Shown one piece after another: positions 1-59,391 of a DNA stretch of 64,000 nt; positions within the stretch are counted from its first letter, which is position 1; the number at the start of each line of letters is the position of its first letter. This DNA comes from Candidatus Woesearchaeota archaeon. GTDB lineage: Archaea; Nanobdellota; Nanobdellia; Pacearchaeales; GW2011-AR1. The translations under genes were made by a program, and so were the position numbers. Under the pieces are notes generated by a model, which was given only the letters and a program-made list of their open reading frames with translations, had not been told where the DNA came from and searched no databases. Location: positions 20,880 through 84,879 of the forward strand of contig CAYPFA010000003.1 of the NCBI GenBank assembly GCA_964410025.1. Direction: 5' to 3'.

Positions 1-295
1 TAATTAAAATATTTTTAAACCACATTTTTGCATTTTCTCTTTTAACAACATCATAACCCGAAATCATAAAATTAAAGCCCGTATAAAGCAATAGCAATCC
101 ATAAAACATCGAGAGGATATACATAACTATCGCCCAAATAGAACCGAACGCAGAAAGATTAACTGGCTCAGTTATCAGCGATTTTGTTAAGTCTAATAAT
201 GGCTGAATTGGTGCATTAATTAAGTTTATAATAAAATCATAAAGCTTTTGTGGGATGCAGGTTGCTAAATTCAATAAACCGCAATCGTCAGTCAT
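1..295 (-). CDS. Membrane protein, partial (N-terminal ~98 aa; gene runs past window start). ATG at 295 overlaps the TGA of the upstream gene (ATGA).
   Basis: Manual minus-strand translation from ATG 295-293 gives MTDDCGLLNLATCIPQKLYDF...GSIWAIVMYILSMFYGLLLLYTGFNFMISGY with hydrophobic helices and no stop before position 1. Confidence 0.35.
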   Translation of the reverse strand, partial: MTDDCGLLNLATCIPQKLYDFIINLINAPIQPLLDLTKSLITEPVNLSAFGSIWAIVMYILSMFYGLLLLYTGFNFMISGYDVVKRENAKMWFKNILI

Positions 296-1671
296 TTTTT
301 ACCTCCAAAATACTTTTTCAAAACCACAAGTAGAACATAATTTAGAAACAGAAAAATGCCACAGTTATAAATAATCCAAAATCTATCTTGTTCTTGTACA
401 TAAATTATTCTTTCTGTCTTTGAACTTCCATTAAAAGCAACTATCTTATTTTCTAAGTTCTGAGAAATAAAACTCGTATTTCCGAAGATAATCTTGCTTT
501 GGTTTCCATAACTAATATTTACAGATAAATTTTGAGGATAAACATAAACTTTTATTGTTTCATTCGCAAGATAATTTAATTTATCTGTTTCAATTCTAAA
601 ATCAATAGGTTTTTGCTCAGCATAGCATGATTTGTTTATGTAATTAAATAAGTCAAATGCCTCGATTGAACAATTATTTGTATTTTTAACAATTAAACTC
701 GTTCCTTGCTTGAATAAATTCTTAATTTGCTCTTGTTTGTAGTCATTTGCTCTTAAAGTTAAAACATAGTAGGGAGACTTAGAATAATTAACAGAATAAA
801 TAAATTCGTCAAACTTATAATAAGAATCTTGAAAGTTTGCTTTAACAGAATTGCTATAACTTAAATTAAAATTAGTATTGCCTGAATAACTTGAAAGTGT
901 ATTAAGATTGGCTGTTAAAGAATTGTTATAATATTTTATTTGCAGATAATCTACTGCTTGTAAATTATCTTTCTGAACTTCATTATAATTATAAGAACAT
1001 CGGTAGCTATATGTTCTGCAAACGCCATTCTTTCGCTTAGAGCAATATCTTTCCCAATAATAATGATCAATTGAATAAGAAACATTAATGGTGAAAACAG
1101 ATTTAATTTGTGAATCGCCAAGTATATTGACATTTACTAATTTTCCACTTCCCTGATAAATATTATTTACAAAAACCTTATTTTCAGAGATATTTTTAGT
1201 CAGAGTATAGCTTCTTTTGCAGTCTCCGCTACTAGTTTGCGAATATCCTGGGCTATTATAATTAACAGGAGAGATGAAATTATAGTTATAACCAGTAAAT
1301 ACTTTTGTTTGATTCGAAACATATAAAGAATTATTGTACAAAACAGAAGGCATTGCTGTAAAAATACTCATCCAAAAATCTTTAATAAAAATACCTTGCT
1401 GTTTACTTACGCCATTTGGCGGATTAACAATTGCCAAGTTTGTATTCCTATCATAAATATATTTGTGGTCTGGAAAGAATTTATTAGAATAATCTAGGTT
1501 TGAAATAATTAGTTCTTTTTCTAAGTCAGTTAAATTCATATTTTTAATTTGGACGCAGGTATCATAATTAGGTGCAGAAATTTGAGAACACTCAATAGAA
1601 TAAATGAAAGGGATTTGCACAGCTACTAAAAGTAAAAGTGCAAAGAGCCCAATCAAATATTTTTTTATCAT
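292..1671 (-). CDS. Secreted or cell-surface protein with N-terminal signal/TM segment. Asn/Tyr/Ser-rich with many N-x-S/T sequons.
   Basis: 459-aa ORF with hydrophobic N-terminus (LIGLFALLLLVAVQIPF), then a low-complexity N/Y/S-rich body. Start follows the stop of the upstream gene by 1 nt. Confidence 0.5.
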   Translation of the reverse strand: MIKKYLIGLFALLLLVAVQIPFIYSIECSQISAPNYDTCVQIKNMNLTDLEKELIISNLDYSNKFFPDHKYIYDRNTNLAIVNPPNGVSKQQGIFIKDFWMSIFTAMPSVLYNNSLYVSNQTKVFTGYNYNFISPVNYNSPGYSQTSSGDCKRSYTLTKNISENKVFVNNIYQGSGKLVNVNILGDSQIKSVFTINVSYSIDHYYWERYCSKRKNGVCRTYSYRCSYNYNEVQKDNLQAVDYLQIKYYNNSLTANLNTLSSYSGNTNFNLSYSNSVKANFQDSYYKFDEFIYSVNYSKSPYYVLTLRANDYKQEQIKNLFKQGTSLIVKNTNNCSIEAFDLFNYINKSCYAEQKPIDFRIETDKLNYLANETIKVYVYPQNLSVNISYGNQSKIIFGNTSFISQNLENKIVAFNGSSKTERIIYVQEQDRFWIIYNCGIFLFLNYVLLVVLKKYFGGKK

Positions 1672-1672
1672 G

Positions 1673-2011
1673 CTAGCCTATGATAAAATTTACTATCAAA
1701 GGTGCTAGCCAAATGACAATTAAGCCGATAACGACATACATTGCCATATTCTTTGCCTGTTCTCGTTTTCCTGGATCGTCCCCAGACATAATATATGTAA
1801 TTCCAGCAAATAACAAAACTAAAACCGCTATGGCTGAAGCAAAGTATTTTACTAGATTATATATCTTCATCACTGGAGAGAGCATTGTGTCGAATGTCGC
1901 TTTATCTGCTGGAGAGATTGGCTGATTATAGTCCAAAGCTACAACAACCTGAAGAGCAAACATTATTCCGAGTAAAACAAGACCCATGATAGAATATATT
2001 TTCTTATCCAT
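1673..2011 (-). CDS. Small two-helix membrane protein with a topology reminiscent of VirB2/TrbC-type pilins
   Basis: 112 aa with N-terminal hydrophobic segment (MGLVLLGIMFALQVVVA), a polar middle and a second long hydrophobic segment (AIAVLVLLFAGITYI...VVIGLIVIWLAPLIV). Overlaps the upstream zinc-ribbon gene. Confidence 0.4.
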   Translation of the reverse strand: MDKKIYSIMGLVLLGIMFALQVVVALDYNQPISPADKATFDTMLSPVMKIYNLVKYFASAIAVLVLLFAGITYIMSGDDPGKREQAKNMAMYVVIGLIVIWLAPLIVNFIIG

Positions 2012-2192
2012 TTTTATACCTCCTGCAAAATTTAGTTGATTTTGAGGTACTTTCTAATAGAAGACTGATAAATTGCATTATATATTTAGGATAATCTTCT
2101 CCATATTTTCCTTTAAAAAAATCCTTGCAAGAATCACAAACATCGTCTTCATTGTCATCTATTTTCTTCTGGCAAACAAAACATCTTGTCAT
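2004..2192 (-). CDS. Small zinc-ribbon protein (CxxC...CxxC)
   Basis: 62 aa: MTRCFVCQKKIDDNEDDVCDSCKDFF. Two CxxC pairs. ATGA overlap with the methyltransferase gene stop. Confidence 0.45.
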   Translation of the reverse strand: MTRCFVCQKKIDDNEDDVCDSCKDFFKGKYGEDYPKYIMQFISLLLESTSKSTKFCRRYKNG

Positions 2193-3139
2193 GATTCACC
2201 ACCTATTTCTTTTAATCTTCTTTCAGCTGTTTTGAGATATTCTCTATTTATTTCTAAACCAATAAAATTTCTTTTCAATCTTTTGCAAACTAATGCAGTT
2301 GTCCCGCTACCCATAAAGGGATCTAAAACGATTCCGCCTTCTGGACAACCTGCAAGCATGCAAAATTCAGGTAGTTTGGAAGGAAACATGGCGAAATGTA
2401 ATTCTCTTGAAGGTTCGAATGGGAACATCAAACAATCAGAGGGATTTTTACCATTAGGATGACAGGATTTTTTCACTCCATGCACATTAAATTGTTTTGC
2501 ATAAGGACTTTCTGAATTTGTTTTATATAGTGTCTTTTCTCTTTTTAGAGAGCTCTCTTTATGAGGAATTCTTACCTTATTTAAATCAAAATAATATTTT
2601 TCATTTTTAACAAAGAAGAGGATAGATTCTGAAACTGTATTAAATCTGTCTTTCGCAGAAGAAGGTATCGCATTTCCCCAGCTTTCTTTTGTTTTCCAAT
2701 TGGTTAGTGTTTTTATCCATTTAATATCGTTTCTCAATATTAATCCCAGTTGACATTGTGCAGATATTGCGATTCTATATGGGATCAGAAGCTTTTGTTT
2801 TGGTCTAAGCCAATCACATTTATGACCTAATGCCCTATTGTAGTAAGAATCGCCTATATTGAGAAAAATAGTTCCTGTTGGTTTTATTATTCTCTTACAT
2901 TCTTTTAGAATTTCTAGAATATTATTAATATAGTCTACTGGACTTTTTTCTCTGCCTATCTGATTCTTAACTCCATAATCTCTTAATGCCCAATAGGGCG
3001 GGGAAGTTATAACACAATCCACATAATTATCGGGTATTCTCTTTAGTGATTTTAGGCAATCTCCGAGGTATATTTTATTTAGTCCTCTAATGTCCTGTTT
3101 GATTGAGTTTTTTATTTTCATGGAAACCAAACCCCTCAC
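2189..3139 (-). CDS. DNA methyltransferase, N4-cytosine/N6-adenine family (PF01555-like, beta-class motif order; SPPY suggests N4C)
   Basis: N-terminal catalytic motif IV VDCVITSPPYW preceded by IYLGDCLKSLKRIPDN. C-terminal AdoMet motif I VLDPFMGSGTTALVCKRLKRNFIGLEIN. First gene of a co-directional overlapping operon. Confidence 0.8.
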   Translation of the reverse strand: MRGLVSMKIKNSIKQDIRGLNKIYLGDCLKSLKRIPDNYVDCVITSPPYWALRDYGVKNQIGREKSPVDYINNILEILKECKRIIKPTGTIFLNIGDSYYNRALGHKCDWLRPKQKLLIPYRIAISAQCQLGLILRNDIKWIKTLTNWKTKESWGNAIPSSAKDRFNTVSESILFFVKNEKYYFDLNKVRIPHKESSLKREKTLYKTNSESPYAKQFNVHGVKKSCHPNGKNPSDCLMFPFEPSRELHFAMFPSKLPEFCMLAGCPEGGIVLDPFMGSGTTALVCKRLKRNFIGLEINREYLKTAERRLKEIGGES

Positions 3140-3336
3140 TTATTCTTATATTCCCTAACAGAAAAAACTTCGAAGTTTTATTCGAACTTTTTTTAGACAA
3201 AAAATCTGTTAGTTTCTATTTAAATCAAAGAACTATTTGTTTTGTATGGAAACAAAAAAGCCCCTGACGCCCGAAGAAGTTATTGCACAACTGAAGAAAC
3301 TCATAGAATCTAGAAATAAACTTAATTCTTTAAAAA

Positions 3337-3519
3337 ATGGGAATGAACTCAAAGCTCCACATACTGCTCAAAACTGAAGACTTCAATAAGCTAAAGAACG
3401 AGGCTTTTAATAAACAGGTTTCCCTGTCTGACCTATGCAGATTAAGACTTTTGCAGTATAACCAGCTTGAGAAAATTGAATTGATACTAGAGAATATAAA
3501 TCAAAAGATAAAACATTGA
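3337..3519 (+). CDS. Putative ribbon-helix-helix (CopG/Arc-like) DNA-binding protein, divergent from the methyltransferase operon
   Basis: 60 aa. KLHILLKTEDFNKLKNEAFNKQVSLSDLCRLRL fits a beta-strand plus two helices RHH pattern. A 197-bp divergent intergenic region is shared with the MTase gene. Confidence 0.4.
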   Translation: MGMNSKLHILLKTEDFNKLKNEAFNKQVSLSDLCRLRLLQYNQLEKIELILENINQKIKH

Positions 3520-3706
3520 ATAAACCTCTATTGCCGAGTATAAGGGTCTTTAAATATAGGTATTTCTAACAAGAATCAATAAAATAGAATACTTTAAATT
3601 TACATCCCTTTCGGATAAGATAATATGTTACATTGGGCTGGAGAGTAATGTGTTTGTGATTTCAGAGAGACGGAAATACATCTCCTCGCAATCACAAAAT
3701 ACTGTA

Positions 3707-3779
3707 CGCTCCCACCGGGATTCGAACCCGGGTTTCCACCGTGAAAGGGTGATGTCCTTGGCCTCTAGACTATAGGAGC
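3707..3779 (-). tRNA. tRNA-Glu (anticodon UUC), 73 nt, no encoded CCA
   Basis: Minus-strand sequence GCTCCTA-TA-GTCT-AGAGGCCAA-GGAC-A-TCACC-CTTTCAC-GGTGG-AAAC-CCGGG-TTCGAAT-CCCGG-TGGGAGC-G folds as a canonical cloverleaf. T-loop GTTCGAATC. Anticodon loop CU-UUC-AC. Confidence 0.85.
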
Positions 3780-3801
3780 TTTGATTTCTTCAACAAAGTT
3801 G

Positions 3802-3810
3802 AATTTATAT
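3802..3810 (-). promoter_or_regulatory. TATA-like box (AATATAAAT on minus strand) about 22-30 nt upstream of tRNA-Glu 5' end
   Basis: Minus-strand upstream region reads ...TTATAGAAGAGAATATAAATTCAACTTTGTTGAAGAAATCAAA|GCTCC. The spacing fits an archaeal TATA/BRE promoter. Confidence 0.35.
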
Positions 3811-3840
3811 TCTCTTCTATAAGATAACGCAGTGCGTGCA

Positions 3841-4997: not shown

Positions 4998-5023
4998 AAA
5001 ACTCACAAAAATAAATGAGTTAC

Positions 5024-5792: not shown

Positions 5793-5913
5793 TGAGCCCA
5801 CCAAGATTTGAACTTGGGACCCCCGCCTTTCTTAGCATTTCTGCTTGAAATAATGTTTCTAACGAAACACGTTCTTATAAGAGCGGTGCTCTACCAGGCT
5901 AAGCTATGGGCTC
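5793..5913 (-). tRNA. Intron-containing tRNA, anticodon UAU (tRNA-Ile-like), ~47-nt intron at canonical 37/38 position
   Basis: Minus strand: GAGCCCA-TA-GCTT-AGCCTGGTA-GAGC-A-CCGCT-CTTATA[47-nt intron AGAACGTGTTTCGTTAGAAAC...GCTAAGAA]A-GGCGG-GGGTC-CCAAG-TTCAAAT-CTTGG-TGGGCTC-A. All stems pair. Mature length is 74 nt. Confidence 0.6.
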
Positions 5914-6155: not shown

Positions 6156-6926
6156 TTGAACACAATGGAAGAACGAAAGATTGTTGTTCCTGGCGAAACG
6201 ATTATCCAAGGCGATGAATTCTTGCCGGGCGACGGAACACGAAGAGAAGAGAAAGATATTGTTGCTAGTAGATTTGGCTTAGCAGATATTTCTGATAGAC
6301 TTGTTAGAGTAATTCCTTTATCTGGAGTTTATGCTCCCCGAAGAGGAAATGTAATTATCGGACAAATTGTTGGAATAACTTTTAAGGGATGGAATGTTGA
6401 TTTCGGCAGTCACGCTAACGGATTTTTGAATGTTGCTGAGGTTCCAAGATATATTGGAAAAGGTGAACTTAGAGATTTCTTAGATTTTGGCGACGTTGTT
6501 TGTGCTAAAGTTTTCGGAACAGACGGAAATAGTGTTGACTTATCCATAAAATTCAGAGGATTCGGAAAAATCGACGGCGGACAATTAATTAATGTTAATC
6601 CAAATAAAGTTCCAAGAATTATCGGCAAAGAAGGAAGCATGGTTAACTTAATAAAGGAAGCAGCTGAATGTGATATTACCGTCGGACAAAACGGAATTAT
6701 TTGGGTTGCTGCAGACAAAATTGAAAACGAATTAAATGCAAAAAAAATTATAGAATTTATTTGTGAAAATTCCTATCTTGCTGGATTAACTGAAAAAGTT
6801 GAAGCTTTTGTAGAAAAAGAATTTGGTAAAAAAATTAAAGCAAAAGACATGAGTGCACAACAACCAATGGAAAATACTGAAAATCAAAATCAAGAAAATG
6901 AAGGAGAAGAAAATGTCGAAAACTGA
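6156..6926 (+). CDS. rrp4: Exosome complex RNA-binding subunit Rrp4 (S1 + KH domains)
   Basis: 256 aa with S1-like region (VVPGETI...GDEFLPG...YAPRRGNVIIGQIVG) and KH-like GKEGSMVNLIKE. First gene of an rrp4-rrp41-rrp42 operon. Confidence 0.8.
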   Translation: MNTMEERKIVVPGETIIQGDEFLPGDGTRREEKDIVASRFGLADISDRLVRVIPLSGVYAPRRGNVIIGQIVGITFKGWNVDFGSHANGFLNVAEVPRYIGKGELRDFLDFGDVVCAKVFGTDGNSVDLSIKFRGFGKIDGGQLINVNPNKVPRIIGKEGSMVNLIKEAAECDITVGQNGIIWVAADKIENELNAKKIIEFICENSYLAGLTEKVEAFVEKEFGKKIKAKDMSAQQPMENTENQNQENEGEENVEN

Positions 6927-7638
6927 AAGCGCTTATAAGAAAAGATATGATGGAAGAAAGAATGACGAACTTAGACCAATCTCTGCTAGGGTAGGAATTG
7001 TGCCTTCCGCTGATGGTTCTGCAATCTATCAATCTGGAAAAACAAGAGCTATTGCTGTTGTTCGAGGACCACGATTACTTCATCCAAAACATATGGAAAA
7101 TCCTAAAAAAGGAATCTTAAGAGTTAATTATCAAATGATGGCCTTCTCTGTATGGGACAGAATCAAGCCAGGAAACTCAAGAAGAGGACAAGAAATCGGA
7201 AAAGTTACAGAATGGGCTTTATCTGAAATTGTTGATTTAGAAGCTTTCCCTAATTCCGTAGTTGATGTTATTATTCAAATTCCACAAGCTGATGCTGGAA
7301 CAAGAGTAGCTGGAATCAATGCTGCTGCTATGGCTTTGGCTCAAGCTGGCGTACCAATGAAAGAAATGGTTTCTGCTGTTGCCGTTGGAAAAATGGATAG
7401 AACTTTAGTTGTTGATGTTGATAAAGAAGAAGAAGACTTTGAAGAAGGCGAAGGCGCAACAGATATTCCGATCTGTTTTACTTCAAGAACAAAAAAGATA
7501 AGTTTATTACAATTAGACGGTAAAATTTCAATACCAGAATTAAAAGAATCAATTGAAATGGCAAAGAAAGCTTCAGAAAAAATATATGATGTTCAAATGA
7601 GAGCACTTAAAGAACCAGGAAAAGAGGTAAAAGGATAA
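6913..7638 (+). CDS. rrp41: Exosome complex exonuclease Rrp41 (RNase PH fold). Start moved to ATG 6913 with upstream AAGGAG.
   Basis: RNase PH-like sequence (RKNDELRPISARVGIVPSADGSAIYQSGKTRAIAVVRGP...). The ORF caller start at 6853 lies inside rrp4. ATG 6913 is preceded by aaggagaag. Confidence 0.85.
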   Translation: MSKTESAYKKRYDGRKNDELRPISARVGIVPSADGSAIYQSGKTRAIAVVRGPRLLHPKHMENPKKGILRVNYQMMAFSVWDRIKPGNSRRGQEIGKVTEWALSEIVDLEAFPNSVVDVIIQIPQADAGTRVAGINAAAMALAQAGVPMKEMVSAVAVGKMDRTLVVDVDKEEEDFEEGEGATDIPICFTSRTKKISLLQLDGKISIPELKESIEMAKKASEKIYDVQMRALKEPGKEVKG

Positions 7639-8457
7639 ATGGAAACACCAAAATTACAAAAGAGAAGAATAATTGAATTTTTACGAGAAGGTAAAAGATT
7701 CGATGGAAGAAAGTTAGACGAAGTTAGAGATATAAAAGTTGAACTTGGAATAAGCGAAAATGCTGAAGGTTCATGTGCTGTAAAATTCGGAAATACAGAA
7801 GTTTATGCTGGAGTTAAAATGTCTATTATTGCACCTTATGCTGATGGTCCTGATGAAGGAACTTTATCTGTTGGACTTGAACTTGGTACAATGGCTGACG
7901 ATGATTTTGATTTAGGCGCTCCTGGAATTGAAGCTATTGAGATGGCAAGAGTTATCGACAGAGGAATTAGAGAATCTGGAATTATTGATTGGAAAAAACT
8001 TTGTATTGAAGAAGGTAAAAAAGTTTGGCAAGTTTCTATTGATATTTATGCTGTAAACAACGACGGTAATTTATTTGACGCTGCTGCCTTAGCTGGACTT
8101 ATTGCTTTGGCTAATGCTAAACTTCCAGTTTATGATGAAAAAGAAGGAAAAGTTAAGCATGAATTAAGTGATAAATCTATTCCATTAAATAAAGATAAAA
8201 TGTCTTTCAATCTAACTGTTTATAAAATCGGAGAAATCTTTGTTCTTGATCCGACAAGAGAAGAAGAAGAAATCACTGAATGTAGACTTGGAATGGCTTT
8301 AGCAGACAACGAAGGAAAACCAAGAATTACTGCAATGCAAAAAGGAAGAGAGGGTGGCCTGAGTTCTGAAGATATGGAAAAGATTTTAAAGTTAGTTGAT
8401 GATAAATTCCCAGAGCTAAACAAAAAAATAACTAAGCTTGTTTGGAATAATAAGTAA
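7639..8457 (+). CDS. rrp42: Exosome complex subunit Rrp42 (RNase PH-like, non-catalytic)
   Basis: 272 aa RNase PH-like protein (RFDGRKLDEVRDIKVELGISENAEGSCAVKFGNTEVYAGV...) immediately after rrp41. Confidence 0.8.
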   Translation: METPKLQKRRIIEFLREGKRFDGRKLDEVRDIKVELGISENAEGSCAVKFGNTEVYAGVKMSIIAPYADGPDEGTLSVGLELGTMADDDFDLGAPGIEAIEMARVIDRGIRESGIIDWKKLCIEEGKKVWQVSIDIYAVNNDGNLFDAAALAGLIALANAKLPVYDEKEGKVKHELSDKSIPLNKDKMSFNLTVYKIGEIFVLDPTREEEEITECRLGMALADNEGKPRITAMQKGREGGLSSEDMEKILKLVDDKFPELNKKITKLVWNNK

Positions 8458-10771: not shown

Positions 10772-11208
10772 TGGAGATTAGAAAAGCTAAGAAAGGCGAC
10801 TTAAAAGAAATTGCTGAGATATTCAGAGTTGAAACTGCCAAAGAGCCATACTTAATGAATTGGAATGAGAAAACCTCCTTAATGAAGATAAAAGAGCTAT
10901 TTGAAATTGGAGAAATTTTTATTCTAGAAGAAAAGAAAATAATTGGTTTTATTGCGATTCAAATAAGACTCGGCTCAAAAGGCAAAAAGGCAATTGTTGA
11001 TGAATTGTGGATTAAACAAGATTTTCAGGGGAAAGGATTCGGGAAAAGCCTAATTAATTTCCTCGAAAATTATTTGAAGAAAAAGAATATTTTTAGAATT
11101 GCCGTAATTTCAGATAAAAATTCTAAGGCATACGGATTTTATGAAAAATTAAACTTTAAGGCTTATCCAGAAGACATTTTAATGGCTAAAAAGATAGATG
11201 AAAATTGA
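10768..11208 (+). CDS. GNAT family N-acetyltransferase
   Basis: 146 aa. LWIKQDFQGKGFGKSLINFLE (acetyl-CoA binding Q/RxxGxG/A) and YGFYEKLNFK. ATGA overlap with eno. Confidence 0.6.
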   Translation: MMEIRKAKKGDLKEIAEIFRVETAKEPYLMNWNEKTSLMKIKELFEIGEIFILEEKKIIGFIAIQIRLGSKGKKAIVDELWIKQDFQGKGFGKSLINFLENYLKKKNIFRIAVISDKNSKAYGFYEKLNFKAYPEDILMAKKIDEN

Positions 11209-41466: not shown

Positions 41467-41520
41467 TTTTTATAAATCTGTTAAATTTTTCTTAAAAGAA
41501 AAAATAATTATTTAGAATTT

Positions 41521-49839: not shown

Positions 49840-49964
49840 GAATAAACATGAAAATTATAGTATAAAAATGTTGAGAAAAATTTGAATGAGCCGGAACTCC
49901 CTATAGCCCGGCCCATTGAATATGATATTTAAATAAAAAAATAATAATTATTTAAAAAGAAAAA

Positions 49965-50090
49965 TTACTTTTTCTTTTTCTTTTTACCGCCTCTAGCCAT
50001 CTTAGCTTCACATACGTTTCCTTTTCCGTCTACATAGTAAAGATATCCTGGCTTTCTTGTGATAGCGTTTTTTACAAGTATTGATCCCAT
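49965..50090 (-). CDS. Small basic protein, 41 aa, poly-Lys C-terminus (not in ORF track)
   Basis: Manual translation gives MGSILVKNAITRKPGYLYYVDGKGNVCEAKMARGGKKKKKK. AGGAGG Shine-Dalgarno 5 nt upstream of ATG 50090. Confidence 0.35.
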   Translation of the reverse strand: MGSILVKNAITRKPGYLYYVDGKGNVCEAKMARGGKKKKKK

Positions 50091-50141
50091 ATTTACCTCC
50101 TTTTTCCTCTTAAATATAATCAATTTATATTTAGTTTGTAT

Positions 50142-56142: not shown

Positions 56143-56724
56143 ATGCCACAAGATATGACATTGTTCAAGCAGGAAGGAAGTCTTTATTTTAAAAGAATTA
56201 AAAGAAGATTGTATCTAGATAAATATGAAGATTATGAGGGAATAGACGGACTTTTAATTGATGCTGAAGAAGATGAAGCAAGAAAGATTATGCAATTTGT
56301 TAAAGCTAAAAATCTAAAGTTAAAAATTGCAGTTGTGGCCAGAGATGACACATACAATAGAAGAATTTTAGATACAATAAAGATTGATTATCTTGTTTCT
56401 CCAGAGCTAAGCCCCAGAATTGATACCTTAAAACAACGATCTTCTGGTCTAAATCATGTTCTTGCGACAATCGCCAGGGATAAAGATGTTACAATCGTAA
56501 TAAATTTATCAAATTTTATTTCAACGCAGGATCCAAAAATAAAATCAATCCTAATTTCAAGAACCATTCAAAACATAGTTGTTTGTAGAAAGGCTAATTG
56601 TAAGATAAAATTCGCCACCTTCGCACAATTTGAAAGTGATCTTTTAGACGAAAAACAAATATTTTCAATCGGCTCGTCATTGGGAATGTCAAGTCAACAG
56701 GCAAAAGATGCCTTTGAGTTTTAG
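56143..56724 (+). CDS. Possible RNase P protein component 3 (Rpp30-like TIM barrel)
   Basis: IDYLVSPE...GLNHVLATIARDKDVTIVINLSNFIS...IVVCRKANCKIKFATFAQFESDL loosely fits the Rpp30 pattern. Confidence 0.35.
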   Translation: MPQDMTLFKQEGSLYFKRIKRRLYLDKYEDYEGIDGLLIDAEEDEARKIMQFVKAKNLKLKIAVVARDDTYNRRILDTIKIDYLVSPELSPRIDTLKQRSSGLNHVLATIARDKDVTIVINLSNFISTQDPKIKSILISRTIQNIVVCRKANCKIKFATFAQFESDLLDEKQIFSIGSSLGMSSQQAKDAFEF

Positions 56725-56733
56725 AAAAACGAA

Positions 56734-56759
56734 ATTGACATGGCTTGTCCATGGCCTTT
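56734..56759 (+). repeat. Hairpin motif copy A: ATTGA-CATGG-CTTGT-CCATG-GCCTTT, followed by a T-tract
   Basis: Shares flanks ATTGA and GCCTT with copies B and C. The stem is different but still complementary (CATGG/CCATG). Confidence 0.5.
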
Positions 56760-56792
56760 ACTTTTTAACAAATTATTTCTAATTAAAAAGTA

Positions 56793-56818
56793 ATTGACAC
56801 AACTTAATTGTGGCCTTT
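56793..56818 (+). repeat. Hairpin motif copy B: ATTGA-CACAA-CTTAA-TTGTG-GCCTTT, followed by GAGTTTTA
   Basis: 26/28 identity to copy C. Stem CACAA/TTGTG. Confidence 0.5.
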
Positions 56819-56823
56819 GAGTT

Positions 56824-57066
56824 TTAATTATATCTTCCAGAATATCTTGCAAAAACTTCAATATTAATGTTGTTTCTTAAATCATAAACTTTTATCTCGG
56901 GCCCAAATCTTCTAATTTTATCTTCGAAAATCTTTAGTCTGCCTTCAGCTTCCCTGTGCTCTGCTAATTCATCTTTTTTCAAAACATAAGGTTTGCATGG
57001 CTTGTATATTATTTGTCTAACTGGCCCATTATTCATACTTTTGAAAATTGCCATTTGTGTATCCAT
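56824..57066 (-). CDS. Hypothetical 80-aa protein, last gene of rpoE-spt4-rps24e-rps27ae operon
   Basis: 80-aa ORF co-directional and closely spaced after rps27ae. Confidence 0.35.
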   Translation of the reverse strand: MDTQMAIFKSMNNGPVRQIIYKPCKPYVLKKDELAEHREAEGRLKIFEDKIRRFGPEIKVYDLRNNINIEVFARYSGRYN

Positions 57067-57087
57067 TTTTAAAATCTTAAAGAATTC

Positions 57088-57297
57088 TTACTTTTTCTTT
57101 GCTGTGAATTCAGTATAATGGCATTTGCCACAATACATTCTATTATCTGCCTTCATTAAGAAAGAAGCAGGTCCACATCTTGGACAATACGGTGCTCTAA
57201 CTATTTTTCCGCCTTCGATTTTATACATTGCGGATTTTTTAGAAGTAGGTTTGTTTTGATGTTTCTTCTTTCCTTTAATCTTTGATTTTACTGCCAT
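57088..57297 (-). CDS. rps27ae: 30S ribosomal protein S27ae
   Basis: Zinc ribbon CPRCGPASFLMKADNRMYCGKCHYTEF with basic N-terminus. Confidence 0.85.
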   Translation of the reverse strand: MAVKSKIKGKKKHQNKPTSKKSAMYKIEGGKIVRAPYCPRCGPASFLMKADNRMYCGKCHYTEFTAKKK

Positions 57298-57298
57298 T

Positions 57299-57613
57299 TT
57301 ATTTTGCTACCTCTGCTCTCTTTTTTTCTTCTTCAGCTTTTTTAGCATCAGCTTCTAATTTTTTTCTAATTTTTCTTCCAACTACTTCAATTTCATTCTT
57401 TGCCTTTTCATTATCATAAACCACAATGTCAACACTAAATTCTTCCTTTCCGAAGCTTCCTCTGATTTGTTTTACAACACAAAGAGCTTCATCTTGTTTG
57501 ATTAAATCAATAACTTCTTTTTTAGAAGGACTTTTTTCTGCAGTTACTTTTAAGAAGAATTCTTCTCTACATAACGAAGGATTTTTAATTTGTTTTATAA
57601 TATCGAATTTCAT
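57299..57613 (-). CDS. rps24e: 30S ribosomal protein S24e
   Basis: MKFDIIKQIKNPSLCREEFFLKVTAEKSPSKKEVIDLIKQ matches the S24e N-terminal pattern. Confidence 0.85.
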   Translation of the reverse strand: MKFDIIKQIKNPSLCREEFFLKVTAEKSPSKKEVIDLIKQDEALCVVKQIRGSFGKEEFSVDIVVYDNEKAKNEIEVVGRKIRKKLEADAKKAEEEKKRAEVAK

Positions 57614-57798
57614 TTTGTTTTTATAGCAAATCTGCCTTTTGAATTTATTTTTAAATTATGAGCAATAATTGATTTTTCTGGATTAAATATAACTGTTTCG
57701 CCTTTGAAACCATCTGAAAAAGCAGTTTCTCCACAGTTAGGGCACTTAGCTCCTTCAACCATCATTTTACATTTCAAACATGCTTTTTCTTTTACCAT
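57610..57798 (-). CDS. spt4: Transcription elongation factor Spt4 / RNA polymerase subunit E''
   Basis: KACLKCKMMVEGAKCPNCGETAFSD C4 zinc ribbon, 62 aa, immediately downstream of rpoE. Confidence 0.75.
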   Translation of the reverse strand: MVKEKACLKCKMMVEGAKCPNCGETAFSDGFKGETVIFNPEKSIIAHNLKINSKGRFAIKTK

Positions 57799-58406
57799 TA
57801 TTTCTTTTTCTCCTTTTTAGCTTTAGGTTTTTCTACACTCTCTTCTTTAGTTGCAGTTTTTGCCTTTTTAGACCTTTCCTTATCAGCACTTATCCATTCA
57901 AGTTTTCCAAGTCCAGGTTGTCTCATTGTTAAACCAATTTTTGGTTCTTCGCCTTTATATGAAATAGCAACGATTCTTGCCAAGCAATTGTCTCCAACAT
58001 TCAAAGATTTCTTTCCATCTTTTCCAGTTAAATTTCCAGTTTTAGAAAAAGAAACAAAATCATCCATTGTTTGTGAAATATGAATCATTCCTCTAACTAC
58101 GCCCATATCAATAAACGCACCGAAGTTTGTAATTTCTTGAATTTTTCCGTAAACAAGTTCTTGTAATTCTGGTTTAAAAACAACAAGTTTAAATTTTGAT
58201 TTATAATAAGCAGCACCATCACCAGGAATAATAATTCCATCAGCAACACTATTTACTTCTAAAACATCAACAACAGTTCCAAGTTCTCTATCTTGAAAAT
58301 TTTCATAACTTTTATGCAACTGTTCCTTTACAGCCTCAGCTGTTTTTAAACCAAACAATTTTGGCTCTACTCTTACATAATCCTCAACTTCGACTAAATA
58401 GAACAT
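57798..58406 (-). CDS. rpoE: RNA polymerase subunit Rpo7/E' (S1 domain)
   Basis: Rpb7-like N-domain (MFYLVEVEDYVRVEPKLFG...GIIIPGDGAAYYKSKF) and S1 domain (GKIQEITNFGAFIDMGVVRGMIHISQTMDDFVSF...ARIVAISYKG). Confidence 0.85.
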   Translation of the reverse strand: MFYLVEVEDYVRVEPKLFGLKTAEAVKEQLHKSYENFQDRELGTVVDVLEVNSVADGIIIPGDGAAYYKSKFKLVVFKPELQELVYGKIQEITNFGAFIDMGVVRGMIHISQTMDDFVSFSKTGNLTGKDGKKSLNVGDNCLARIVAISYKGEEPKIGLTMRQPGLGKLEWISADKERSKKAKTATKEESVEKPKAKKEKKK

Positions 58407-58439
58407 GATTTTATTAGAAAAAGTTCGTTTTTAAAGCTT

Positions 58440-58491
58440 TCGTCAATCGCCGAGTTATTTTTCACAAGCTAACTTGAAATGCGATTGACGA
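58440..58491. repeat. 11-bp perfect inverted repeat TCGTCAATCGC ... GCGATTGACGA (30-nt loop) followed by 15-mer GAAAAAGAATATTTT
   Basis: Arms at 58440-58450 and 58481-58491 are exact reverse complements. The 15-mer at 58494-58508 recurs at 58624-58638. Confidence 0.5.
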
Positions 58492-58555
58492 CCGAAAAAG
58501 AATATTTTCGGCTAAGTCGTTGAAAAATAATCTTTTTTAGGACAATTTTGAAACG

Positions 58556-58581
58556 ATTGACACAACTTGATTGTGGCCTTC
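58556..58581 (+). repeat. Hairpin motif copy C: ATTGA-CACAA-CTTGA-TTGTG-GCCTTC
   Basis: Near-identical to copy B at 56793-56818, located upstream of rpoE. Confidence 0.5.
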
Positions 58582-58620
58582 GAAGTTCGATTATTGTTTT
58601 TATCGACAATACGAACTTCG
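58581..58620. repeat. Nested inverted repeat CGAAGTTCG-AT-T-ATTGT-ttttatcg-ACAAT-A-CGAACTTCG, followed by second copy of GAAAAAGAATATTTT
   Basis: 9-bp outer arms at 58581-58589 and 58612-58620. 5-bp inner arms at 58593-58597 and 58606-58610. Confidence 0.5.
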
Positions 58621-58667
58621 ATAGAAAAAGAATATTTTTGACTATTATGTTTTTATTTTTAAACTAA

Positions 58668-58979
58668 TTAATGCCGTAACTGTTCCACAAGTGCAGATTC
58701 AACAAAAATTCTTCCGTCGTCAGCAATCATATATGGAACCGAAGTTTGTGTAAGATTTTTTACTTCTTTAGTAAAATCAATTCTTCCAGAACCAGAAATC
58801 ATAGTGTCAACAAAAACCTTTGTTGGCCCATTTTCATCGCCAGAAATTAAAGAAATTCTTTTTGCTTCCAATAATGCTCTCTGGACTGCATAAGAAAGCT
58901 CTCCGTGAAAAGGTCTACTAAGATTAGAATTTCCATTAGTATTTTCTATTGTATAAATTACTCTATATTCTTTTATCAT
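58668..58979 (-). CDS. Hypothetical protein
   Basis: 103-aa ORF with no recognised motif. Confidence 0.3.
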   Translation of the reverse strand: MIKEYRVIYTIENTNGNSNLSRPFHGELSYAVQRALLEAKRISLISGDENGPTKVFVDTMISGSGRIDFTKEVKNLTQTSVPYMIADDGRIFVESALVEQLRH

Positions 58980-59013
58980 AAAATTCCCTATAAAACTCCA
59001 CTTAAAAACGTTC

Positions 59014-59391
59014 CTATATTAACTCTAAATCCTTGAAATCTTTAATCACAAGAATCCTATTCCCAATTCTACTTTTCAACTTTTTATCCAGAGTTGCAAG
59101 TGCAATATCTTTTCCTTTAATGAATTGAAAAATTCCTTCGTCAACATGTTTATTTTTTATGGAAATATATTCTGGTTTAGCCATGTCTAAAAGCATAAGT
59201 GCAAGTTTCGCAGCATCCTTATCTTTTCCTTTTAATCCAGCCCTAGAACCAAGATCTTTCAATTCTGAAATAACTTCATTTGGCACAATCCACTTTATTT
59301 CTTCGCCAATCTTTTCATTTGCCACGCTAACAAAATCAATTTTTTGCTTCGCGCACGCCAATAAAAAATTTGTGTCTAATACAATTTTCAT
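59014..59391 (-). CDS. PIN-domain protein (putative ribonuclease)
   Basis: MKIVLDTNFLLACAKQKIDF N-terminal PIN signature with conserved Asp. C-terminal acidic residues. Confidence 0.55.
   Translation of the reverse strand: MKIVLDTNFLLACAKQKIDFVSVANEKIGEEIKWIVPNEVISELKDLGSRAGLKGKDKDAAKLALMLLDMAKPEYISIKNKHVDEGIFQFIKGKDIALATLDKKLKSRIGNRILVIKDFKDLELI

What the first reader, a model, noticed from the sequence alone, without database searches (positions are those of the whole stretch)
56700..58620. Family of hairpin motifs with compensatory stem changes (ATTGA-stem-CTTNN-stem-GCCTT) flanking both ends of the rpoE-spt4-rps24e-rps27ae operon
Three same-orientation copies show conserved flanks and loop start. 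Copies B and C are 26/28 identical. Copy A has a different stem that still pairs (CATGG/CCATG versus CACAA/TTGTG), the signature of selection on structure rather than sequence. Copies A and B are each followed by GCCTTT(N)2-3TTTT(T)A tracts, and the 14-mer GCCTTTGAGTTTTA also occurs at the very end of the upstream CDS (56710-56723), giving a tandem unit arrangement. On the plus strand these look like hairpin plus U-tract terminators for the Rpp30-like gene. Copy C sits where no plus-strand gene ends, in the promoter region of rpoE. So it is either a small dispersed repeat/MITE-like element, a regulatory RNA/DNA motif shared by this locus, or a protein-binding site.
Basis: seen in the sequence. 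Interest (0 to 1): 0.55.

Follow-up and report, generated by a model that had tools for sequence, protein, structure and literature searches.

The report
Local stem-loop repeats bordering rpoE operon
Three copies of a 25-base stem-loop with fixed flanks sit at the two borders of the rpoE–spt4–S24e–S27ae operon of an uncultured DPANN archaeon; they are real and look selected, but are confined to this lineage and most likely act as transcript-end (terminator/insulator) hairpins, so the finding is a modest curiosity.

Summary
ATTGA-[5 bp stem]-CTTNN-[stem]-GCCTT occurs exactly three times in the window (56734-58, 56793-817, 58556-80, all + strand). Chance expectation is 0.17. All three stems are fully Watson-Crick, against 2 of 165 chance matches elsewhere. 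Copy A differs from B/C by three compensated pairs, all transitions, while 13 of 15 unpaired positions are unchanged.

The family is tiny and local. I found no further copy in about 78 kb of this organism, none in 644 kb of relatives' rpoE loci, and no Rfam match. In the closest relatives with DNA (Rpp30 87% identical), both sites are empty: Rpp30 abuts the convergent gene, and the upstream gene ends 9 nt before the conserved rpoE TATA box.

A and B lie in an 89-bp insert bracketed by a perfect 14-bp duplication of the Rpp30 3' end. The insert has no terminal inverted repeats, and no transposase is present in the window. Copy C is one of five hairpins in a lineage-specific 261-bp spacer, about 125 nt upstream of the rpoE TATA box and not in the core promoter.

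Best reading (confidence about 0.4): locally duplicated hairpin plus T-tract modules that act as back-to-back transcript-end elements. The conserved flanks leave room for a specific binding or mobilising factor.

The parts
56734..56758 (+). Copy A core: ATTGA | stem 56739-43 CATGG | loop 56744-48 CTTGT | stem 56749-53 CCATG | GCCTT
   Evidence: 43.3 bits; -5.0 kcal/mol on +, -5.9 on -
56793..56817 (+). Copy B core: ATTGA | stem 56798-802 CACAA | loop CTTAA | stem 56808-12 TTGTG | GCCTT
   Evidence: 45 bits; -3.3 on +, -4.5 on -
58556..58580 (+). Copy C core: ATTGA | stem 58561-65 CACAA | loop CTTGA | stem 58571-75 TTGTG | GCCTT
   Evidence: (42.8 bits)
56710..56723 (+). 14-mer GCCTTTGAGTTTTA, copy 1. 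It is the last codons of Rpp30 (A F E F, then TA of the stop codon).
56813..56826 (+). 14-mer GCCTTTGAGTTTTA, copy 2. It supplies the GCCTT flank of copy B, and its last 3 nt are the ORF80 stop codon on the minus strand. Deleting 56724-56826 restores an intact Rpp30 end (…DAFEF*, TAA) overlapping the ORF80 stop.
56724..56812 (.). 89-bp insert carrying A and B. It is absent in the closest relatives, where Rpp30 and the convergent ORF abut. No terminal inverted repeats in any register.
56754..56767 (+). Diverged box GCCTTTACTTTTTA after hairpin A (11/14 identical to the 14-mer when aligned with one gap). Contains T5 at 56762-66, a candidate plus-strand termination tract for Rpp30.
56758..56793 (.). 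Perfect 11-bp inverted repeat TTACTTTTTAA / TTAAAAAGTAA (56758-68 and 56783-93). It joins the T-run after A to the A-run before B. On the minus strand the A-run reads as T5 (56785-89), 8 nt after hairpin B.
58407..58667 (.). Lineage-specific 261-bp spacer between ORF103 and rpoE, holding five consecutive hairpins: H1 arms 58440-50/58481-91; H2 58492-58511; H3 about 58515-57; copy C; H5 arms 58580-89/58612-21. It also holds an internal 37-nt direct repeat (58478-514 / 58608-44).
   Evidence: (z -5.64 on both strands)
58427..58441 (-). Conserved rpoE BRE/TATA box (GAAAGCTTTAAAAAC). It matches the genome's promoter consensus and the orthologous promoters of relatives. It marks where the ancestral sequence resumes.
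56824..57066 (-). ORF80, a lineage-specific small ORF between S27ae and the hairpins. The only hit is a 76-aa version of itself. It is not homologous to the ORF85 that occupies this slot in L256/L257.
58668..58979 (-). ORF103, a small ORF between the PIN gene and the structured spacer. One full-length homolog (P0004, 47% identical) sits after PIN in a relative. It is absent from L003/L004/L006, where PIN is followed directly by rpoE, and from L257.

Best explanation
This is a small, lineage-specific family of stem-loop modules. They arose by local insertion and duplication at the two variable slots that border the conserved rpoE-spt4-S24e-S27ae operon. They most likely work at the RNA level as transcript-end or insulator elements.

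Shown:
- Each module is a 5-bp hairpin with fixed flanks (ATTGA … GCCTT). In A and B the hairpin has an A-run before it and a T-run after it.
- As a result, each convergent gene meets a hairpin 11-14 nt after its stop codon and a T5 tract 8 nt further on. For Rpp30 on the plus strand this is hairpin A, then GCCTTTAC, then TTTTT. For ORF80, the last gene of the rpoE operon on the minus strand, it is hairpin B, then TCAATTAC, then TTTTT. A second hairpin plus T-tract follows as a back-up in each direction.

Inferred:
- Archaeal RNA polymerase, together with aCPSF1, ends transcripts at the U-tracts.
- The hairpin just upstream blocks 3'-to-5' trimming by the exosome, whose genes are in the window. 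It may also slow the polymerase.
- Copy C, with four neighbouring hairpins, separates the PIN-ORF103 unit from the rpoE promoter.
- The conserved unpaired flanks suggest that some factor also reads the sequence. That factor is unknown.
For: Reality and selection:
- 3 matches against 0.17 expected.
- 3 of 3 fully paired, against 2 of 165 chance matches.
- 3 of 5 pairs are compensated, and all six changes are transitions, the route through G-U intermediates.
- 13 of 15 unpaired core positions are identical between A and B, although sequence outside the core is unalignable.

Position:
- All three copies sit at boundaries of transcription units.
- A and B lie between convergent stop codons, with T5 or T4 tracts on both strands.
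- The scan flags hairpin A and the Rpp30-end hairpin as terminator-like.
- The two other convergent pairs with 26- and 54-nt gaps also carry a palindrome with T-runs, at 4998-5023 and 41467-41520. The pair with a 205-nt gap shows none near its stop codons, the pair with a 481-nt gap only a weak fold at one end, and the remaining pairs abut.
- Exosome genes Rrp4, Rrp41 and Rrp42 are present at 6156-8457.

Minus-strand hint: on that strand the fixed flanks add GGC/GUC pairs, giving a slightly more stable fold (-4.5 to -5.9 versus -3.3 to -5.0 kcal/mol). All three copies have the same orientation relative to the minus-strand genes.

Local origin:
- Both sites are empty in L256/L257.
- A 14-bp perfect duplication brackets the A-B insert.

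Background: archaeal termination relies on U-tracts bound by aCPSF1, and two U4 tracts are stronger than one (PMC8716108).
Against: - Term-seq in four archaea found U-tracts without preceding hairpins (PMC8716108), so a hairpin is not needed for termination.
- Terminator-like hairpins are not enriched in 45-64 kb of the window (9 found, 9.3 expected). Most of 51 gene ends show no stable fold.
- The hairpins are weak and not more stable than shuffles (z -0.5 to -1.8).
- A plain terminator does not explain the invariant ATTGA and GCCTT flanks or the CTT loop start.
- Copy C fits poorly. On the minus strand only TTT follows it. On the plus strand T5 is 19 nt away, and no plus-strand gene ends there.
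- Close relatives do without the elements.
- No transcript data are available.
Confidence: 0.4

Rival explanations
1. The copies are footprints of a mobile or recombinational process acting on single-stranded DNA hairpins, similar to REP/RAYT elements or the ends of IS200/IS605. An enzyme encoded elsewhere would recognise the hairpin plus its fixed 5' and 3' flanks. The copies mark insertion and rearrangement events at the variable slots, and any effect on transcription is secondary.
For: - A hairpin with covarying stem and invariant single-stranded flanks is how HUH and Y1 enzymes read their sites (PMC6006769, PMC3479197, abstracts).
- Both loci are lineage-specific insertions at hot spots of gene turnover.
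- A 14-bp perfect direct repeat brackets the A-B insert, and removing it restores the gene end.
- All copies have the same orientation.
- The left end of the window runs into a conjugative-element-like island.
Against: - Only 3 copies in about 78 kb, all within 1.85 kb.
- None in 644 kb of relatives.
- No Y1/HUH enzyme, transposase, integrase or Cas1 in the window.
- From my own knowledge, IS200/IS605 and REP elements do not make target duplications.
- No terminal inverted repeats.
- The compensatory transitions argue for long maintenance of the fold, not a recent footprint.
Confidence: 0.2
2. The motif is a sequence-specific binding site on RNA, most likely the minus-strand transcript. It would be read by a protein that processes or regulates the rpoE-spt4-S24e-S27ae operon, for example a product of the operon, the adjacent PIN-domain nuclease, or an RNase P/Rpp30-linked activity. 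One site would lie in a long leader (C) and two in the 3' UTR (B, A).
For: - Invariant unpaired positions with a covarying stem.
- The copies bracket exactly this operon and occur nowhere else in the window.
- A TATA-like box (GTTTAAAAAT, 58655-64 on the minus strand) could start a transcript that carries C ahead of rpoE.
- A PIN_9 gene and Rpp30 are immediate neighbours.
Against: - The motif is absent in all relatives that keep the same operon and promoter, so it is not part of conserved regulation.
- No match to any known RNA motif.
- No tandem G·A signature of a K-turn (read from the sequence).
- Neither the leader transcript nor the binder is demonstrated.
Confidence: 0.15
3. Copy C, and possibly A and B, are parts of unannotated small non-coding RNA genes. 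One candidate is a plus-strand RNA transcribed divergently from the rpoE TATA region through H1, H2, H3 and C, ending at TTTTT 58599-603.
For: - The spacer is the most structured intergenic region in the window (z -4.3 to -5.6).
- The plus-strand fold is 10 kcal/mol more stable than the minus-strand fold.
- A palindromic TATA box and a T5 tract 19 nt after C exist.
Against: - The z-scores are equal on both strands, which is typical of DNA palindromes.
- No Rfam family matches, even at E up to 10.
- The region is absent in relatives, so there is no covariation support.
- It contains an internal duplication rather than a compact fold.
Confidence: 0.1
4. The copies are neutral leftovers of local duplication with no function, or a chance resemblance.
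For: - The family is tiny, local and absent in relatives.
- The hairpins are weak.
- There is only one independent covariation comparison.
Against: - Chance is excluded.
- Neutral drift to 32% core divergence should not leave 13 of 15 unpaired positions intact, all three changed pairs compensated, and saturated flanks outside the core.
Confidence: 0.1

Closest known systems
Archaeal U-tract terminators acting with aCPSF1/FttA
   Same: T4-T5 tracts, often two in a row, lie shortly after stop codons at the boundaries of transcription units, on both strands for A and B (PMC8716108).
   Different: The known archaeal signals need no upstream hairpin and have no fixed flanking sequence. Here a covarying stem and the invariant ATTGA/GCCTT flanks are the conserved part. 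Copy C lacks a nearby T5 on the minus strand.
Bacterial intrinsic (rho-independent) and bidirectional terminators
   Same: A stem-loop is followed by a T-run. An A-run upstream makes the A-B unit work in both directions between convergent genes.
   Different: The stems have only 5 bp and -3.3 to -5.9 kcal/mol. The T-run is separated from the stem by GCC or TCAAT and is interrupted. The organism is an archaeon.
REP / BIME elements mobilised by RAYT
   Same: Short extragenic palindromes with a conserved tag next to the stem, found at gene 3' ends and between convergent genes. They are credited with termination and mRNA stabilisation (PMC2817692, PMC3733652).
   Different: REPs occur in high copy, usually more than 100 per genome (PMC2817692). 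They carry GTAG or CGTC tags (PMC3733652), and in BIMEs they alternate in orientation (PMC2817692). From my own knowledge, they go with a RAYT gene. Here there are 3 direct copies, a different tag and no RAYT in 64 kb.
IS200/IS605 subterminal hairpins and derived miniature elements
   Same: Direct-orientation hairpins with adjacent short conserved sequences that are read on one DNA strand.
   Different: No TnpA or TnpB is present. The segment between B and C is a conserved essential operon. From my own knowledge, that family makes no target duplication, whereas a 14-bp direct repeat is present here.
Casposon / Cas1-type integration
   Same: Insertion at the 3' end of a gene with a 13-15-bp target duplication (PMC5137440). 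Here there is a 14-bp duplication of the Rpp30 3' end.
   Different: The insert is 89 bp with no terminal inverted repeats. No Cas1 is present in the window. This is a lead from size alone.

Membership tests
Any Rfam RNA family | Covariance-model score at or above the gathering threshold | tested here: not met
   Only two tRNAs pass in the whole window. Over 56600-58800 at E up to 10, only sub-threshold noise appears, and none of it lies on the motif.
Bacterial-type intrinsic terminator | G+C-rich stem of at least 5 pairs followed within 0-2 nt by a T-rich tail | tested here: inconclusive
   The scan accepts hairpin A and the Rpp30-end hairpin, but not B or C. The overall count equals the shuffled expectation (9 versus 9.3). 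Stability is only -3.3 to -5.9 kcal/mol.
Archaeal U-tract terminator | Run of at least 4-5 T shortly downstream of the stop codon on the coding strand | tested here: met
   A and B: T5 at 56762-66 (+), T4 at 56822-25 (+), T5 at 56785-89 (-) and 56725-29 (-). C: only TTT on the minus strand, and T5 19 nt away on the plus strand.
Archaeal U-tract terminator | RNA 3' ends map to the tract | not testable with these tools
   No transcript data are available.
MITE | Terminal inverted repeats | tested here: not met
   All 15 registers of the 103-bp unit were tested. The longest matching terminal run is 2 nt.
MITE | Target-site duplication | tested here: met
   A perfect 14-bp direct repeat is present, and excision restores the Rpp30 end.
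MITE / dispersed repeat | Multiple dispersed copies in the genome | tested here: not met
   Only 3 copies, within 1.85 kb, in 64 kb plus about 14 kb of flanks. The rest of the genome could not be reached.
REP/RAYT | High copy number; GTAG or CGTC tag; RAYT (Y1 transposase) gene | tested here: not met
   There are 3 copies, and the tag is ATTGA. No Y1_Tnp hit in the window. The whole genome was not searched.
IS200/IS605-derived element | TnpA or TnpB nearby; hairpin-bearing ends bounding a mobile segment; no target duplication | tested here: not met
   No such genes are present. The B-C interval is the ancestral operon, syntenic in 80 relatives. A 14-bp direct repeat is present.
Integron attC / gene cassette | R'' (RYYYAAC) and R' (GTTRRRY) cores forming an imperfect palindrome after each cassette ORF; IntI | tested here: not met
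   The sequence was read directly. No such cores are present, the outer boxes are direct rather than inverted, and no integrase is found.
K-turn / K-loop (L7Ae site) | Tandem sheared G·A pairs next to a 3-nt bulge | tested here: not met
   The flanks ATTGA/GCCTT (plus strand) and AAGGC/TCAAT (minus strand) give no consistent GA/GA arrangement in the three copies (read).
Conserved cis-regulatory element of the rpoE operon | Presence at orthologous loci | tested here: not met
   No motif in L003-L082 or L253-L258. The only other hits are weak: 22 bits at L006 6523-53, and 18.5 bits inside the Rpp30 gene of relatives.

The most novel reading that the evidence does not exclude
The invariant ATTGA…CTT…GCCTT frame around a freely covarying stem is the recognition site of an unknown sequence- and structure-specific factor in this DPANN lineage. 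One possibility is a nuclease or RNA-binding protein that defines both ends of the rpoE-spt4-S24e-S27ae transcript. Another is a single-strand DNA enzyme that inserts small hairpin modules at gene 3' ends with a 14-bp target duplication, which would be a new kind of miniature archaeal insertion element without inverted terminal repeats.
Probability: 0.12. Interest if true: 0.6.

Novelty: new member of a known kind. Interest (0 to 1): 0.28.

Why it matters
If the hairpins do define transcript ends, they would be an example of structure-assisted 3'-end formation in an archaeon. Known archaeal terminators are plain U-tracts. The example would come from the little-studied, uncultured DPANN group.

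The clean 14-bp duplication around an insert that is absent from near relatives also shows how tightly abutting convergent genes in a streamlined genome can acquire a spacer.

The element is restricted to one clonal population and to one 2-kb neighbourhood, and it has no detectable relatives. Its general significance is therefore limited unless a dedicated binding or mobilising factor turns up.

Tried and rejected
1. Metagenome-wide pattern scan.
2. Viral-contig scan. It returned 45 chance matches, none fully paired.
3. Strain variation. Contigs of this organism from six samples are 100% identical, so there is no within-population covariation.
4. An outer helix between the flanks. It is not supported (33% of cells paired).
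5. Extended homology of the B and C flanks, to test whether C was copied from B together with the ORF80 end. It is not significant.
6. Regular tandem array. Tandem Repeats Finder finds none.
7. MITE. No terminal inverted repeats.
8. Integron attC, K-turn, C/D or H/ACA box RNAs, tRNA fragments, RNase P or SRP RNA. No defining boxes are visible by eye, and there is no Rfam hit.
9. Replication origin. GC skew simply follows gene orientation.
10. ORF80 and ORF103 as carriers of the motif. In the word-indexed searches each finds only itself or a shorter version of itself. ORF103's one full-length homolog (P0004) lies after PIN in a relative whose DNA could not be fetched.
11. The exact 15-mer GAAAAAGAATATTTT at 11079 lies inside a GNAT acetyltransferase gene, so it is a chance match.
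12. The resemblance of AAACTCAAAGG to the universal 16S rRNA region near position 907 (the 16S sequence is recalled from my own knowledge, not tested). I judged it coincidental, because that sequence is the coding end of Rpp30.
13. The weak covariance-model hits in L006 (22 bits) and inside Rpp30 of L256-L258 (18.5 bits) were not accepted as family members.

Full report
**1. What is there**

The window comes from an uncultured DPANN archaeon of the Pacearchaeota/Woesearchaeota/Nanoarchaeota group, judged from the relatives found. On the minus strand lie, in order:
- a PIN_9 gene (59014-59391);
- ORF103 (58668-58979);
- a 261-bp spacer;
- rpoE' (57798-58406), spt4, S24e and S27ae;
- ORF80 (56824-57066).

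Converging on this block from the plus strand are an amino-acid kinase gene and Rpp30 (56143-56724).

- A, 56734-58;
- B, 56793-817;
- C, 58556-80.

**2. Is it more than chance?**

Yes.
- The pattern with its 16 fixed bases, allowing two mismatches, finds only these three sites in 64 kb. The expectation is 0.17, and 0 of 100 shuffles reach three.
- The same pattern picked up 45 chance matches in viral contigs and 120 in metagenome contigs. None of the 45 and 2 of the 120 had all five stem pairs formed, even with G-U allowed. In the window all three copies are fully Watson-Crick.
- A differs from B/C at three of the five pairs, each time on both sides. All six substitutions are transitions (T-A to C-G, and G-C to A-T twice). 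That is the path expected when a stem evolves through G-U intermediates.
- 13 of the 15 unpaired core positions are identical: ATTGA, the first three loop bases CTT, and GCCTT. Sequence beyond the 25-28-nt core is no more similar than shuffled sequence (p 0.13-0.67).

This pattern argues for selection on both the fold and the flanks. It rests on one independent comparison, because B and C are near-duplicates (26/28).

**3. How far does the family extend?**

Not far.
- A relaxed search (TTGAC, 5-bp stem, 5-nt loop, stem, GCC, at least 4 pairs) over the window plus about 14 kb of extra flank from the same organism finds only A, B and C.
- A covariance model built from the three copies (R1) scores them at 43-45 bits. 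It finds nothing convincing in 644 kb of rpoE loci from 80 related species. The best hit is 22 bits (E about 0.01) in L006, in a divergent promoter region.
- In closer relatives the best hits are 18.5 bits, inside the Rpp30 coding sequence.
- Rfam has no match.
- Contigs of this organism from six samples are 100% identical, so there is no population variation to use.
The rest of the genome therefore remains unsearched.

**4. Both sites are lineage-specific insertions**

In the closest relatives whose DNA I could fetch (L256, L257; Rpp30 87% identical):
- Rpp30 and a convergent small ORF abut with no spacer (…GAGTACTGA|TTATC…).
- The gene upstream of rpoE ends 9 nt before the promoter AAGCTTTAAAAATGAACTTTTTCTATTAAAATCATG.

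That promoter is also conserved in L003, L004 and L006, and in L005 with a variant TATA context. In L003, L004 and L006 the PIN gene lies only about 80 nt upstream of rpoE. It matches the genome's own promoter consensus, CTTTAWAAAC at about -35 to -26 from the start codon.

The slots on both sides of the operon are variable among relatives and hold non-homologous small ORFs.

In the window, A and B lie in an 89-bp insert (56724-56812). It is bracketed by a perfect 14-bp direct repeat, GCCTTTGAGTTTTA.
- The first copy is the coding end of Rpp30 (A-F-E-F-stop). Its relatives have GCGTTYGAGTACTGA at the same place.
- Removing the insert plus one repeat restores …DAFEF* with a TAA stop that overlaps the ORF80 stop. 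That is the abutting arrangement seen in the relatives.

This is the signature of an insertion with a target duplication. However, the insert has no terminal inverted repeats in any register. No transposase, integrase, Cas1 or HUH/Y1 enzyme is detectable anywhere in the window.

**5. Anatomy of the A-B unit**

- Plus strand: Rpp30 stop, 14 nt, hairpin A, GCCTTTAC, TTTTT. Further on: hairpin B, GCCTTTGAG, TTTT.
- Minus strand: ORF80 stop, 11 nt, hairpin B, TCAATTAC, TTTTT. Further on: hairpin A, TCAATTTCG, TTTTT.
- The T-run after A and the A-run before B form a perfect 11-bp inverted repeat (56758-68 / 56783-93).

Each convergent gene therefore meets a hairpin and then a T5 tract, followed by a second hairpin and T-tract. 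In the same window, the two other convergent pairs with 26- and 54-nt gaps also carry a palindrome with T-runs (4998-5023; 41467-41520). The pair with a 205-nt gap shows none near its stop codons, the pair with a 481-nt gap only a weak fold at one end, and the remaining pairs abut with 7-10 nt.

**6. Anatomy of the C site**

C is one of five consecutive hairpins in the 261-bp spacer.
- This is the most structured intergenic region in the window (z -5.64 on both strands).
- The spacer contains a 37-nt internal direct repeat with the exact 15-mer GAAAAAGAATATTTT twice.
- It contains the octamer CGATTGAC three times: before C, and in both arms of hairpin H1.
- H1 ends at the BRE of the rpoE promoter.
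- C is about 125 nt upstream of the TATA box and 93 nt downstream of the ORF103 stop.

No T5 follows C closely on the minus strand. On the plus strand a T5 lies 19 nt downstream, inside the loop of H5. The strand and extent of transcription here cannot be decided from sequence. Both a minus-strand TATA-like box (58655-64) and the palindromic rpoE TATA box could drive transcripts through C.

**7. Mechanism**

I commit to transcript-end or insulator modules as the most likely function (confidence 0.4).

- *Shown:* position at the boundaries of transcription units; the geometry of hairpin plus T-tract on both strands for A and B; conservation of the fold; presence of exosome genes.
- *Inferred:* termination at the U-tracts, which in archaea is driven by U-tracts and aCPSF1 and is stronger with two tracts (PMC8716108); protection of the new 3' end from exosome trimming by the hairpin.

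Arguments against:
- The same paper reports that archaeal terminators lack preceding hairpins.
- Terminator-like hairpins are not enriched here (9 versus 9.3).
- The stems are weak (-3.3 to -5.9 kcal/mol).
- The invariant flanks are unexplained.
- C fits poorly.
- Near relatives do without the modules.

The invariant flanks are better explained by a sequence-specific reader. That keeps two rivals alive: a single-strand-DNA recombination or mobilisation site (0.2) and an operon-specific RNA-protein site (0.15). An unannotated small RNA (0.1) and non-functional duplication (0.1) follow.

On the minus strand the flanks add GGC/GUC pairs, one of them a G-U pair, which would be an A-C mismatch on the plus strand. 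All copies are in the sense orientation downstream of minus-strand genes. This is a weak hint that the minus-strand RNA is the functional form.

**8. Comparison with known systems**

The element works most like a bidirectional terminator or a REP-type extragenic palindrome. It is a member of none of the defined families.
- It has no Rfam family.
- It fails the copy-number, tag and enzyme criteria of REP/RAYT elements.
- It lacks the inverted repeats of MITEs.
- It lacks the core sites of attC.
- It lacks the G·A pairs of K-turns.
- The 14-bp duplication is the size made by casposases (13-15 bp at a gene's 3' end; PMC5137440), but nothing else fits a casposon.

**9. Verdict**

The element is a new but very small and local member of a known kind, namely short intergenic stem-loop repeats at gene ends.

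Interest is modest (0.28). It would rise if the whole genome revealed more copies with further compensated stems, or a dedicated enzyme.

Noticed in passing
window 58407-58667: This 261-bp spacer holds five back-to-back hairpins (z -5.6 on both strands). It has an internal 37-nt direct repeat (58478-514 / 58608-44), the exact 15-mer GAAAAAGAATATTTT twice, and CGATTGAC three times. It is absent from relatives and has no Rfam match. It could be an unannotated RNA gene or a remnant of rearrangement.
   Followed up: partly
window 5793-5913 (-): Rfam calls a 121-nt tRNA (53 bits) that ARAGORN does not report. It is presumably an intron-containing archaeal tRNA.
   Followed up: no
window 1-3831 and L248 (about 9.7 kb of flank beyond the left end of the window): The left end of the window runs into genes like those of a conjugative element: TrbC/T4SS pilin, a TraC/VirB4-like ATPase of 987 aa, an N6_N4 methyltransferase, and type I restriction-modification subunits. 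This is unusual cargo for a DPANN genome.
   Followed up: no
window 58668-58979 (-), ORF103: In the word-indexed search this ORF finds only itself. Full HMMER finds one 130-aa homolog (P0004, 47% identical), located after PIN in a relative. It also finds weak matches to a domain repeated 10-19 times in giant proteins (2312-5622 aa). ORF103 looks like a free-standing copy of a surface-protein repeat domain.
   Followed up: partly
window 56724-57088 and 58407-59013; loci L004, L005, L006, L253, L256, L257: The two slots flanking the rpoE-spt4-S24e-S27ae operon are hot spots of gene turnover. Different relatives carry non-homologous small ORFs, NUDIX/NDK genes or a DUF2238 gene there. In L253 Rpp30 is followed by exosome genes instead of converging on the operon.
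   Followed up: partly
window 4998-5023 and 41467-41520: Two other convergent gene pairs with short gaps carry a palindrome with T-runs between their stop codons (AACTCA…TGAGTT; TTTTTCTTAAAAGAAAAA). The pair with a 205-nt gap shows no such palindrome near its stop codons, the pair with a 481-nt gap only a weak fold at one end, and the remaining pairs abut with 7-10 nt.
   Followed up: partly
window 49840-50141 (-): This 302-bp intergenic region folds better than shuffles on the minus strand only (z -3.2). It may hold a small RNA.
   Followed up: no
L001, L002, L248-L252 versus the window: Contigs of this organism from six different samples (three JGI metagenomes and three SRA runs) are 100% identical to the window over 2-16 kb. 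The population appears clonal, or the samples share a common source.
   Followed up: partly
L006 6523-6553 (-): A weak covariance-model hit (22 bits, E about 0.01): ATGATTGA-ATTGA-CTTGC-TCAAT-ACTTTCAA, followed by T7. It lies in the divergent spacer upstream of Rpp30 in a relative. It shares the ATTGA flank, a 5-bp stem and the CTTG loop, but not GCCTT. It may be a distant relative of the motif or a chance match.
   Followed up: partly
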